A DNA stretch of 64,000 nucleotides from Escherichia coli (GTDB lineage Bacteria > Pseudomonadota > Gammaproteobacteria > Enterobacterales > Enterobacteriaceae): the NCBI RefSeq assembly GCF_009931435.1, contig NZ_CP043414.1; one strand, 5' to 3'. Positions 11,301-14,300 of the stretch are shown in pieces (within the stretch, counting starts at the first letter, position 1; each line of letters opens with the position of its first letter). The position numbers are program-made.

Positions 11301-14300
11301 GTCATCGCTGCTGGATTATCTCTTTTTGCCGATGATCAACGTTTTGTTGGCGAAAATCTATCTCTCCGCCCTCTTCCCGGAAGTGCCGCCGTGGGTGTGG
11401 GTGGTAACCTTCGTCGCCATTTTAACCGCCGCGAATCTGAAGAGCGTCAACCTGGTCGCTAACTTCAATACCTTGTTTGTACTGGTGCAAATCTCCATCA
11501 TGGTGGTGTTTATCTTCCTGGTGGTTCAGGGACTACATAAAGGAGAAGGCGTTGGCACCGTCTGGTCACTTCAGCCGTTTATCAGCGAGAACGCGCACCT
11601 GATCCCGATTATTACCGGGGCGACGATTGTCTGTTTCTCGTTCCTCGGTTTCGATGCGGTGACCACGCTTTCGGAAGAGACGCCGGACGCCGCGCGTGTT
11701 ATTCCGAAAGCCATCTTCCTGACGGCGGTATACGGCGGCGTTATCTTTATCGCGGCGTCGTTCTTTATGCAGCTGTTCTTCCCGGATATCAGCCGCTTTA
11801 AAGATCCGGACGCCGCACTGCCGGAAATCGCACTGTACGTTGGCGGCAAGTTGTTCCAGTCGATTTTCCTCTGCACGACGTTTGTGAACACGTTAGCGTC
11901 TGGCCTGGCGTCACATGCCAGCGTGTCGCGTCTGCTGTATGTGATGGGGCGCGACAATGTGTTTCCGGAACGCGTGTTTGGCTATGTGCACCCGAAATGG
12001 CGGACTCCGGCATTGAATGTCATTATGGTCGGGATTGTCGCGTTGTCAGCGCTGTTCTTTGATTTAGTCACTGCCACGGCACTGATTAACTTCGGCGCGT
12101 TGGTGGCGTTCACCTTCGTTAACCTGTCGGTGTTTAATCACTTCTGGCGGCGTAAAGGCATGAATAAAAGCTGGAAGGAACACTTTCACTATTTGCTGAT
12201 GCCGCTGGTTGGCGCGCTGACGGTGGGCGTGCTGTGGGTTAACCTCGAGTCAACGTCACTGACACTCGGTCTGGTATGGGCTTCATTAGGCGGCGCATAT
12301 TTGTGGTATCTGATCCGCCGCTATCGTAAAGTGCCGTTGTATGATGGTGACAGAACGCCGGTGAGCGAAACGTAATAGTCGGATGCGCGGCGCATTATCC
12401 TGCCTGAGGGTAATGCGCCGCGCCATTAACTATAAAAAGATGTATGACCCGGATCACGAGTGCTATCATCCGCCCTTATGCTTAGCGCATTAACCCCAGG
12501 GGCAAATAATGAACCACGATATCCCGCTAAAATATTTTGATATTGCCGATGAGTACGCGACCGAATGCGCAGAGCCTGTCGCAGACGCTGAACGCACACC
12601 GCTGGCCCACTACTTCCAGTTACTGCTCACCCGTTTGATGAACAATGAAGAGATCAGCGAAGAAGCCCAACATGAAATGGCTGCTGAAGCGGGGATTAAT
12701 CCCGTACGCATTGATGAGATCGCAGAGTTTTTGAATCAATGGGGTAATGAGTAATTATTTCATTGCGGACGCTCGGTCAGTATCGTTGCCCGGATAAAGC
12801 GTTCACGCCGCATCCGGCTAAAAATGACACGCACTGCAGCGTGCTTTAATGGGTTTCTCACGATCGTACCGCTCTGCTCCTCGCTAAGTTGTTCTGTGAG
12901 TTATAGTTATAGAGAAATCACGGGTACGAATGTTGAACAGATGGCGACGTCACCTGTTCAACGACCAACCACACGGCCCTCATTACGACCCCTGAACACA
13001 AACGGTAATGGCAAATGTCATTAAATATTAGTAAGATAGCCTCTTTACATAAAATCTCTTAATATTATGCGCCAGGTATTATCGTCTCTTTTGGTGATTG
13101 CTGGACTTGTGAGTGGTCAGGCAATCGCCGCGCCTGAATCCCCCCCGCATGCTGATATCCGCGACAGCGGTTTTGTCTATTGCGTCAGCGGGCAAGTCAA
13201 CACCTTTAACCCATCCAAAGCGAGCAGTGGGTTAATTGTCGATACCCTTGCCGCCCAGTTTTATGATCGACTCCTGGATGTCGATCCCTATACCTATCGC
13301 CTGATGCCGGAACTTGCCGAAAGCTGGGAAGTGCTCGACAACGGCGCGACCTATCGCTTCCACCTGCGTCGCGATGTTCCGTTTCAAAAAACCGACTGGT
13401 TTACTCCCACTCGTAAAATGAATGCCGACGATGTGGTGTTTACCTTCCAGCGAATTTTTGACCGCAACAACCCGTGGCATAACGTCAACGGCAGCAACTT
13501 TCCCTACTTCGACAGCCTGCAATTTGCCGATAACGTGAAAAGCGTCCGCAAACTGGATAATCATACCGTTGAGTTCCGACTCGCCCAGCCGGATGCTTCT
13601 TTTTTGTGGCACCTGGCGACCCATTATGCATCGGTCATGTCGGCAGAATATGCCGGGAAGTTAGAGAAAGAAGATCGCCAGGAGCAACTCGACCGTCAAC
13701 CGGTTGGCACTGGACCGTATCAGTTATCGGAATACCGCGCCGGGCAATTTATTCGCCTACAACGTCATGATGACTTCTGGCGCGGCAAACCGTTAATGCC
13801 GCAGGTGGTGGTGGATTTAGGCTCCGGCGGTACCGGACGTCTGTCGAAACTCCTGACCGGGGAGTGCGACGTTCTGGCCTGGCCTGCTGCCAGCCAGCTA
13901 TCTATTTTGCGTGACGATCCGCGCTTGCGTTTAACGCTGCGTCCGGGGATGAATGTCGCCTATCTGGCATTTAACACCGCCAAACCGCCGCTTAATAATG
14001 CCGCCGTGCGCCATGCGCTGGCTCTGGCGATCAATAACCAACGCCTGATGCAATCCATCTATTATGGTACGGCTGAAACGGCGGCCTCTATTTTACCGCG
14101 CGCCTCGTGGGCCTATGACAACGAGGCTAAAATTACTGAATACAATCCGGCGAAATCGCGCGAACAGTTGAAGGCGTTAGGGCTGGAAAACTTAACGCTG
14201 AAACTTTGGGTGCCCACACGTTCGCAGGCGTGGAACCCCAGCCCACTGAAAACCGCCGAACTGATTCAGGCGGATATGGCGCAGGTTGGCGTAAAAGTGG

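What the first reader, a model, noticed from the sequence alone, without database searches (positions are those of the whole stretch)
12385..12423. Perfect 13-bp inverted repeat after puuP without a U-tract
GCGCGGCGCATTA / TAATGCGCCGCGC with a 13-nt loop lies 10 nt after the puuP stop. The stem is strong, but the following sequence (ATTAACTATAAAAAG) is not U-rich, so it is not a canonical intrinsic terminator. It may be an RNA stability or processing element, or a protein-binding palindrome, separating puuP from ymjA.
Basis: seen in the sequence. Interest (0 to 1): 0.25.

Follow-up and report, generated by a model that had tools for sequence, protein, structure and literature searches.

The report
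REP-like stem-loop ending the puuP mRNA
The palindrome just after the E. coli putrescine importer gene puuP is real, but it is an ordinary, probably already catalogued REP-type hairpin, most likely shielding the 3' end of the mRNA from degradation rather than acting as a classical terminator.

Summary
The inverted repeat is real: 13-bp perfect arms at 12385-12397 and 12411-12423, against 0.025 such repeats expected per window. It is larger than reported. The stem has 17 bp with one G.U pair, and the loop is 5 nt (GCCTG). The fold is about -39 kcal/mol with its flanks (z = -6.2).

Its left arm plus loop (12378-12407) resembles the REP consensus. A paper quoting EcoCyc lists a variant REP, "REPv111", for the puuA-ymjE-puuP unit.

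The element occurs once per genome in 5,422 of 5,426 complete E. coli genomes. The perfect stem is a minority allele: 117 genomes match the window's 57-mer. K-12 and most other strains carry one of two single mismatches.

Four other puuP-bearing Escherichia lineages keep a hairpin at the same spot. Their arms vary at 47% of columns, close to the synonymous-site level, yet 92% of pair cells stay paired and four pairs show double changes.

There is no U-tract, so it is not an intrinsic terminator. The best reading is a 3'-exonuclease barrier. It may also slow terminating ribosomes, because it starts 9 nt after the stop codon. No 3'-end data exist for this locus.

It is an ordinary feature of low interest.

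The parts
12373..12375 (+). puuP stop codon (TAA). The main stem starts 9 nt downstream. The outermost predicted pair starts at 12375.
   Evidence: ORF 10936-12375; RefSeq puuP annotation in K-12 and strain 2013C-4282; fold.
12378..12407 (+). REP-like unit, GTCGGATGCGCGGCGCATTATCCTGCCTGA. It has a REP-type head (GTCGGATGCG; GCCGGATGCG in strain RM8385) and tail (TTATCCTGCCT).
   Evidence: Best non-REP hit in the window to the REP Y consensus (score 25 against 11.3 +/- 2.6) and to the window's own REP at 3470-3506(-) (score 30 against 11.4 +/- 2.5). Alignments: 24 identities over 30 columns, 4 of them gaps, to the consensus, and 22 over 26 columns, one a gap, to the neighbouring REP. RM8385 allele. 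'REPv111' is listed for puuP in PMC10100675.
12385..12401 (+). 5' arm of the hairpin (GCGCGGCGCATTATCCT).
   Evidence: the repeat finder I1: 17-nt arms, 94% complementary; RNA fold.
12402..12406 (+). 5-nt loop, GCCTG. It is inverted to CAGGC in E. whittamii. It is also the insertion point of a roughly 10-kb integrase island in 7 E. coli genomes.
   Evidence: loop and inversion; island junctions.
12407..12423 (+). 3' arm of the hairpin (AGGGTAATGCGCCGCGC). Both common E. coli mismatch alleles (positions 12414 and 12417) lie here.
12424..12433 (+). Tail after the stem, CATTAACTAT. It is not U-rich. It pairs weakly with 12375-12385 in the minimum-energy fold.

Best explanation
The element is a diverged REP-type palindrome in the 3' untranslated region of the puuA-ymjE-puuP transcript.

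Composition: one REP-like unit at 12378-12407, followed by an inverted copy of its core. It is very probably the element EcoCyc calls REPv111.

Proposed mechanism (inferred, not shown at this locus):
1. On the sense RNA it folds into a 17-bp GC-rich stem-loop with no U-tract.
2. RNA polymerase mostly reads past it, and the transcript ends or is cut further downstream.
3. The 3'-to-5' exonucleases PNPase and RNase II then trim back to the base of the stem.
4. The stem becomes the stable 3' end of the puuP message and sets its lifetime.

A second possible effect: the stem starts only 9 nt after the stop codon. It therefore lies within the range (15 nt or less) in which REP hairpins are reported to hinder terminating ribosomes and lower expression of the upstream gene.

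ymjA downstream appears to have its own promoter, so the hairpin marks the end of the puu message rather than an internal operon element.

What is shown here: the structure, its position, its REP likeness, its linkage to puuP and the conservation of pairing.
For: - Structure: 17-bp stem, -38.9 kcal/mol, z = -6.2.
- Position: in the puuP 3' UTR, upstream of a TGCTATCAT motif (extended -10 type) that lies 48 nt before the ymjA ATG in the Escherichia loci, including a lineage without puu genes.
- Linkage to puuP: that puu-less lineage (L003) has no hairpin, while all puuP-bearing Escherichia lineages have one.
- Pairing is kept while the sequence drifts. The arms vary at 47% of columns, against 56% at puuP third codon positions and 12% in the ymjA upstream region. 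Even so, 92% of pair cells are paired, 4 pairs show changes on both sides, and 0 to 2 of 500 shuffles reach the observed values. Each lineage folds at -25 to -33 kcal/mol.
- REP likeness. REPv111 is listed for puuP, puuA and ymjE from EcoCyc (PMC10100675).
- General mechanism: Rho-dependent E. coli mRNAs end just after stable stem-loops that lack a U-tract, produced by PNPase and RNase II trimming. REPs resist exonucleases (PMC6061677).
- REPs within 15 nt of a stop codon stall ribosomes (Liang et al. 2015, as described in PMC12306157).
- There is a mild C-over-G excess downstream: 22 C against 16 G in 85 nt.
Against: - There is no transcript evidence. The term-seq tables of PMC7815308 list no 3' end and no Rho-termination region between 1350208 and 1361446 on this strand. 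This is probably because puuAP was little expressed in those media, which is my inference.
- Most E. coli carry a stem mismatch, so a perfect stem is not required.
- B2 strains such as Nissle 1917 lack puu genes yet keep the hairpin next to a 108-nt puuP remnant. Retention therefore does not need puuP function.
- Double changes in a DNA palindrome can arise from template switching at quasi-palindromes without selection on the RNA. The loop inversion in E. whittamii points to such events.
- The two common E. coli mismatches are A.C on the sense RNA but would be G.U on the antisense RNA. Strand asymmetry therefore does not favour the sense strand.
- I could not check the coordinates of REP111 in EcoCyc.
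Confidence: 0.6

Rival explanations
1. It is a functionless relic. A decayed REP or collapsed REP pair persists because small palindromes decay slowly. They are also repeatedly re-symmetrised by template switching during replication. Any effect on the mRNA is incidental.
For: - Two different stem-weakening alleles are common in E. coli.
- The hairpin is kept in B2 strains without puu genes.
- The primary sequence evolves at nearly the synonymous rate.
- The loop inversion in E. whittamii is a DNA-level palindrome event.
- One lineage (L004) lost half the hairpin, and another (L003) lost all of it together with the puu cluster.
Against: - A strong hairpin (-25 to -33 kcal/mol) is present at the same distance from the stop codon in all five puuP-bearing species-level lineages, despite 47% variable columns.
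- Pairing exceeds the shuffle and slid-partner controls.
- A 17-bp GC-rich stem in a transcribed 3' UTR will block exonucleases whether or not it was selected for that (general knowledge; PMC6061677).
Confidence: 0.2
2. It is a transcription attenuator or insulator. The hairpin itself, with or without Rho or Nus factors, stops or pauses part of the transcription leaving puuP. This is as described for some REP/BIME elements, and it would keep ymjA under its own promoter.
For: - It is a strong GC-rich stem immediately after the gene, in front of an independently conserved ymjA promoter-like motif.
[quoted passage not shown] 2001, as cited in PMC6061677).
- Mild C>G content downstream.
Against: - There is no U-tract: 3 T in the 8 nt after the stem, and the scan does not call it.
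- No Rho-termination region is recorded here in PMC7815308, although expression was probably too low to tell.
- Only 85 untranslated nt separate the hairpin from the ymjA start.
Confidence: 0.12
3. It is a DNA-level site. The palindrome would be bound by a protein (a regulator, gyrase or IHF as at BIMEs) or would serve as a recombination or attachment site.
For: - Seven of 5,426 genomes carry a roughly 10-kb island inserted exactly in the loop. The island has a P4-type tyrosine integrase. The DNA can therefore be used as an attachment site.
- The puu cluster is bracketed by REP-type elements at 3426-3506 and 12378-12427.
Against: - The arm sequence is not conserved between lineages; only the complementarity is. 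This argues against a sequence-specific operator.
- 17-bp GC-rich arms with a 5-nt spacer, placed downstream of a stop codon, are not typical of a regulator site (inference).
- Island insertion is rare (0.13% of genomes) and reflects use by a mobile element, not a host function.
Confidence: 0.08

Closest known systems
REP (repetitive extragenic palindromic) elements / BIMEs of E. coli, here probably EcoCyc 'REPv111'
   Same: - It is extragenic, lies just after a stop codon and is palindromic.
- Its head (G[T/C]CGGATGCG) and tail (TTATCCTGCCT) match the consensus GCCGGATGCGGCGTGAACGCCTTATCCGGCCTAC.
- It shares 22 identities over 26 aligned columns with the REP at 3470-3506(-) of the same window.
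- The expected role is as a 3' mRNA stabiliser.
   Different: - It is a unique sequence, present once per genome.
- The central part is shorter than in the Y type.
- The terminal CTAC is missing (GCCTGA instead).
- The dominant fold is not the REP's own hairpin. It is a longer 17-bp stem made with an inverted copy of the REP core, like a collapsed tail-to-tail REP pair.
Protective 3' stem-loops of Rho-dependent transcripts (Dar and Sorek 2018, PMC6061677)
   Same: - It is an energetically stable stem-loop directly after a coding region.
- It has no U-rich tail.
- There is a mild C>G content downstream.
   Different: No mapped 3' end, Rho dependence or exonuclease dependence is available for this locus.
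Rho-independent (intrinsic) terminators
   Same: A GC-rich stem-loop at the end of a gene.
   Different: It lacks the 7-8 nt U-tract that defines the class. The stem is longer than is usual for the class.
Translation-linked REPs (Liang, Rudd and Deutscher 2015, as summarised in PMC12306157)
   Same: The hairpin begins 9 nt after the stop codon, inside the 15-nt limit reported to stall terminating ribosomes. The spacing is kept at 9-10 nt in the other Escherichia lineages.
   Different: No expression data exist for puuP. I could not obtain the original paper to see whether puuP is on its list.

Membership tests
REP elements | Extragenic, and transcribed with the flanking gene | tested here: met
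   It lies between the puuP stop (12375) and the ymjA start (12509) on the sense strand of both genes. Transcription itself was not measured.
REP elements | Palindromic, forms a stem-loop | tested here: met
   17-bp stem, -38.9 kcal/mol.
REP elements | Shares the family consensus motif | tested here: inconclusive
   - 24 identities over 30 aligned columns (4 of them gaps) to the Y consensus, and 22 over 26 columns (one gap) to a neighbouring REP.
- It is the top non-REP hit in the 64-kb window, with z about 5 to 7.5.
- The terminal CTAC is absent.
- The Rfam naRNA4 (REP325) model does not hit it.
REP elements | Many highly similar copies per genome | tested here: not met
   The 57-mer occurs once per genome (median 1 place). 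The core has no other close copy in the window. It relates to the family only at the level of the consensus.
REP elements | Curated as a REP in EcoCyc (REP111) | not testable with these tools
   - PMC10100675 lists REPv111 (1 REP) for puuA, ymjE and puuP 'according to EcoCyc'.
- Its coordinates could not be read.
- The RefSeq copy used here shows no repeat features.
Intrinsic terminators | GC-rich stem-loop | tested here: met
Intrinsic terminators | U-tract immediately 3' of the stem | tested here: not met
   The tail is CATTAACT, with 3 T in 8 nt. It is not called by the terminator scan.
Protective 3' stem-loops of Rho-dependent mRNAs | Stable stem-loop without a U-rich tail at the end of the gene | tested here: met
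   class description in PMC6061677.
Protective 3' stem-loops of Rho-dependent mRNAs | Steady-state RNA 3' end just downstream of the stem, with read-through when Rho or exonucleases are removed | tested here: inconclusive
   No 3' end and no Rho region is listed near K-12 position 1357750 in the supplements of PMC7815308. Supplements of three other 3'-end studies are not held.
Translation-linked REPs | Hairpin 15 nt or less from the stop codon | tested here: met
   9 nt between the stop codon and the main stem; 9-10 nt in other Escherichia lineages.
Translation-linked REPs | Lowers expression of the upstream gene through ribosome stalling | not testable with these tools
   This needs reporter or protein measurements.
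Operator-type protein-binding palindromes | Base sequence of the half-sites conserved among orthologous loci | tested here: not met
   47% of arm columns vary among five Escherichia lineages, with compensating changes. The neighbouring ymjA upstream region varies at 12%.

The most novel reading that the evidence does not exclude
The hairpin is a tuned translational and stability 'brake' on the putrescine importer.
- It starts 9 nt after the stop codon, so it would stall terminating ribosomes and set PuuP output.
- The two high-frequency stem-weakening alleles in E. coli (positions 12414 and 12417) would be adaptive adjustments of that brake, not drift.
- The same palindrome doubles as the attachment site of a P4-type integrase island.
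Probability: 0.1. Interest if true: 0.4.

Novelty: already known. Interest (0 to 1): 0.12.

Why it matters
It matters little beyond annotation. The result gives the likely 3' boundary of the puuA-ymjE-puuP message. It also illustrates, in one well-sampled case, how a REP-type 3' hairpin keeps its pairing while its sequence turns over at nearly the neutral rate.

If the translational-brake reading held, the locus would be a natural allelic series for testing how REP hairpins close to stop codons set protein output. The series runs from a perfect stem, through two different single mismatches, to a deleted half.

For the scan, it is a reminder that a strong U-less hairpin after an E. coli gene is the expected form of a 3' end, not an anomaly.

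Tried and rejected
- Rfam, at E <= 10 over 10500-13500, finds nothing at the hairpin. It gives only weak naRNA4 (REP325-type) matches at the REP after ymjA.
- Dispersed-repeat test: the 57-mer is single-copy in E. coli genomes. The core has no other close copy in the window. The whole hairpin is therefore not a repeat family member in the strict sense.
- Intrinsic terminator: rejected for lack of a U-tract.
- Small ORF 12383-12493 (36 aa): dismissed, because indels in the hairpin among lineages break the frame.
- Conservation outside Escherichia: puuP lies next to ymjA only in Escherichia among 80 YmjA loci. No wider comparison of this intergenic region was possible.
- 3'-end data: supplements of PMC6061677, PMC9023263 and PMC9122600 are not held. 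PMC7815308 has no entry for the locus.
- Liang et al. 2015 and Liang and Deutscher 2016 could not be opened.
- Strand inference from wobble pairs is uninformative. One long-standing G.U favours the sense RNA, while the two common E. coli mismatches would be G.U on the antisense RNA.
- REP-mediated loss of the puu cluster: the B2 deletion has its end points inside puuE and puuP, not in the REPs. That idea is therefore not supported for B2.

Full report
**Observation**

The window is E. coli. puuA, ymjE, puuP, ymjA and sapA all lie on the + strand, and puuP ends with TAA at 12373-12375 while ymjA starts at 12509.

The reported repeat is present exactly as described. GCGCGGCGCATTA lies at 12385-12397 and its reverse complement at 12411-12423.

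The '13-nt loop' is itself largely paired. The arms extend to 17 nt (12385-12401 with 12407-12423) and are 94% complementary, around a 5-nt loop GCCTG. On the + strand RNA the single non-Watson-Crick position is a G.U pair.

With its flanks the RNA folds at -38.9 kcal/mol. Shuffles give -20.7 +/- 2.9, so z = -6.2, and none of 200 shuffles folds as well. The opposite strand folds at -33.9 kcal/mol.

The window holds three perfect inverted repeats of at least 13 bp with loops of at most 20 nt. Markov simulations give 0.025 on average.

The tail after the stem is CATTAACTATAAAAAG. The terminator scan does not call the site.

**What it is**

The left arm plus loop (12378-12407) reads GTCGGATGCGCGGCGCATTATCCTGCCTGA. 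This resembles the REP consensus GCCGGATGCGGCGTGAACGCCTTATCCGGCCTAC, as quoted in PMC12306157.

I slid REP consensus sequences and the window's own REPs over the whole window. This locus is the best hit that is not a canonical REP:
- score 25 against a background of 11.3 +/- 2.6 for the Y consensus;
- score 30 against 11.4 +/- 2.5 for the REP at 3470-3506(-).

The alignments give 24 identities over 30 columns (4 of them gaps) and 22 over 26 columns (one gap), respectively. In strain RM8385 the head is exactly GCCGGATGCG.

The right arm is an inverted copy of the REP core only. The dominant fold is therefore not the REP's own hairpin but a longer one, like a collapsed tail-to-tail REP pair.

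A paper that tabulates EcoCyc REP annotations lists 'REPv111', one REP, for puuA, ymjE and puuP (PMC10100675). I could not read the EcoCyc coordinates. The canonical REP after ymjA (12785-12818, minus strand) is not listed for ymjA in that table. I therefore infer that REPv111 is this hairpin.

Rfam has no match here. As a whole the sequence is unique, with one place per genome in 5,422 of 5,426 complete E. coli genomes.

**Variation within E. coli**

The perfect stem is a minority allele. Only 117 genomes match the window's 57-mer at 99% or more.
- K-12, and 1,481 genomes identical to its 57-mer, carry T->C at 12414. This gives an A.C mismatch and a fold of -34.5 kcal/mol.
- A second common allele has G->A at 12417. 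It gives a C.A mismatch and a fold of about -33 kcal/mol. It occurs in strains 06-00048 and 28Eco12 and in the B2 strains sampled.
- Both positions are paired in the other Escherichia lineages, so the perfect form looks ancestral. This is my inference.
- B2 strains lack puuPADRCBE (PMC2617782). Nissle 1917 nevertheless keeps the hairpin next to a 108-nt puuP remnant fused to a puuE remnant.
- One strain with such a puuP remnant has two uncompensated stem changes.

**Variation between lineages**

A search with YmjA retrieved 80 loci from species-representative genomes. puuP lies next to ymjA only in Escherichia.

Four further lineages with puuP have a hairpin at the same place, 9-10 nt after the stop codon. 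They are Escherichia sp. E1V33, 'E. coli' E69, E. whittamii and E. albertii. Their folds are -25 to -33 kcal/mol.

Results on a nine-sequence alignment:
- 92% of pair cells form standard pairs.
- Four pairs carry changes on both sides.
- 0 to 2 of 500 shuffles reach the observed values.
- Slid-partner controls drop to 28-52% paired.

Among the five species-level lineages the arms vary at 47% of columns. This is close to puuP third codon positions (56%) and far above the ymjA upstream region (12%). Pairing, not sequence, is therefore what persists.

There are two cautions. The sample is small. Double changes in a DNA palindrome can also come from template switching at quasi-palindromes (established knowledge). 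E. whittamii has the loop inverted, CAGGC for GCCTG, which is a DNA-level palindrome event.

A lineage without the puu cluster (L003) has pspF directly upstream of ymjA and no hairpin. The sequence from ATAAAAAGATG onward is unchanged there. The hairpin therefore belongs with puuP, not with ymjA.

A TGCTATCAT motif of the extended -10 type lies 48 nt before the ymjA ATG in the Escherichia loci. This suggests that ymjA has its own promoter.

**Mechanism**

The hairpin is not an intrinsic terminator, because the U-tract is missing.

The best-supported reading is the standard one for such structures. In E. coli, mRNAs terminated by Rho have precise steady-state 3' ends just after stable stem-loops that lack U-rich tails. 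These ends are produced when PNPase and RNase II trim back to the stem. REPs are a subset of such protective structures (PMC6061677). This element has the right structure and position, and there is a mild C-over-G excess downstream: 22 C against 16 G in 85 nt.

The stem starts 9 nt after the stop codon. It therefore also falls within the distance (15 nt or less) at which REPs are reported to stall terminating ribosomes and reduce expression (Liang et al. 2015, as described in PMC12306157).

All of this is inference for this locus. The one term-seq data set I could read lists no 3' end and no Rho region here. That is probably because puuAP was barely expressed in those media.

**Rival explanations**
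- A functionless REP relic kept symmetric by replication-template switching. In its favour are the two common mismatch alleles, the retention in B2 strains and the near-neutral sequence turnover.
- A Rho-assisted or REP-type attenuator that insulates ymjA.
- A DNA-level site. This last reading gets some support from a side finding: seven genomes carry a roughly 10-kb island inserted exactly in the loop. The island encodes a P4-type tyrosine integrase, a primase zinc-ribbon protein and a Toprim-DUF927 protein. That reflects use by a mobile element rather than a host function. The lack of sequence conservation also argues against an operator.

**Verdict**

The feature is a known kind of element in the best-annotated bacterial genome and is probably already catalogued, so interest is low.

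Noticed in passing
L094:12034-22260 (E. coli OkiPb01696); equals the window loop 12402-12410: A roughly 10.2-kb island is inserted exactly in the hairpin loop in 7 of 5,426 E. coli genomes. It encodes a P4-type tyrosine integrase (Arm-DNA-bind_3 plus Phage_integrase), an HTH regulator, a primase zinc-ribbon protein and a Toprim-DUF927 protein. attL reads GCATTATCCTGCCTGAG|AATAGG and attR reads GTAGTATTATCCTGAGGGAGTAATGCGCC. The island looks satellite-like or PICI-like, but it was not identified.
   Followed up: partly
window 3426-3459 (+) and 3470-3506 (-): Two inverted REPs (a BIME) lie between pspF and puuE. The second is the closest relative of the hairpin's left arm. The puu cluster is therefore bracketed by REP-type elements in opposite orientation.
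   Followed up: partly
L003:2390-2440; L093:1200-1560: The puu cluster is missing in two different ways. Escherichia sp. MOD1-EC7003 has pspF, 20 nt, then the ymjA upstream region, with no REPs left. B2 strains such as Nissle 1917 have a deletion that fuses a puuE 3' remnant to the last 108 nt of puuP and keeps the BIME and the hairpin.
   Followed up: partly
window 18357-18393 and 38854-38890: Two more perfect 13-bp inverted repeats with 11-nt loops and no clear T-tract: CACCTCATCCTGA...TCAGGATGAGGTG and ATTTGCTTGCCGG...CCGGCAAGCAAAT. They are probably further 3'-end stem-loops. I did not examine them.
   Followed up: no
window 12785-12818 (-) and 12827-12844: A canonical Y-type REP (GCCGGATGCGGCGTGAACGCTTTATCCGGG) lies between ymjA and sapA. 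Next to it is a short hairpin with a T-run on the minus strand. Both give weak Rfam naRNA4 matches.
   Followed up: no
window 12461-12469: TGCTATCAT, a motif of the extended -10 type, lies 48 nt upstream of the ymjA ATG. It is at the same distance in the Escherichia loci, including the puu-less one. Similar TGnTAnnnT motifs occur in 34 of 74 YmjA loci. The block ATAAAAAGATGTATGACCCGGATCACGAG upstream of it is invariant in Escherichia.
   Followed up: partly
L007:2395-2420 (E. whittamii): The hairpin loop is inverted relative to E. coli: ATTACCCTCAGGCAGGGTAAT against ATTATCCTGCCTGAGGGTAAT. The G.U position is a C-G pair there. This is a flip of the loop between the arms.
   Followed up: no
L004:2400-2500 (E. 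coli SCPM-O-B-8794): Half of the hairpin is deleted, leaving GGTGCGTGGCGCATTATCTATAAAAAG. The deletion apparently occurred between the short direct repeats GCGCATTATC and GCGCCATTATC. The puuP 3' end upstream looks degraded.
   Followed up: no
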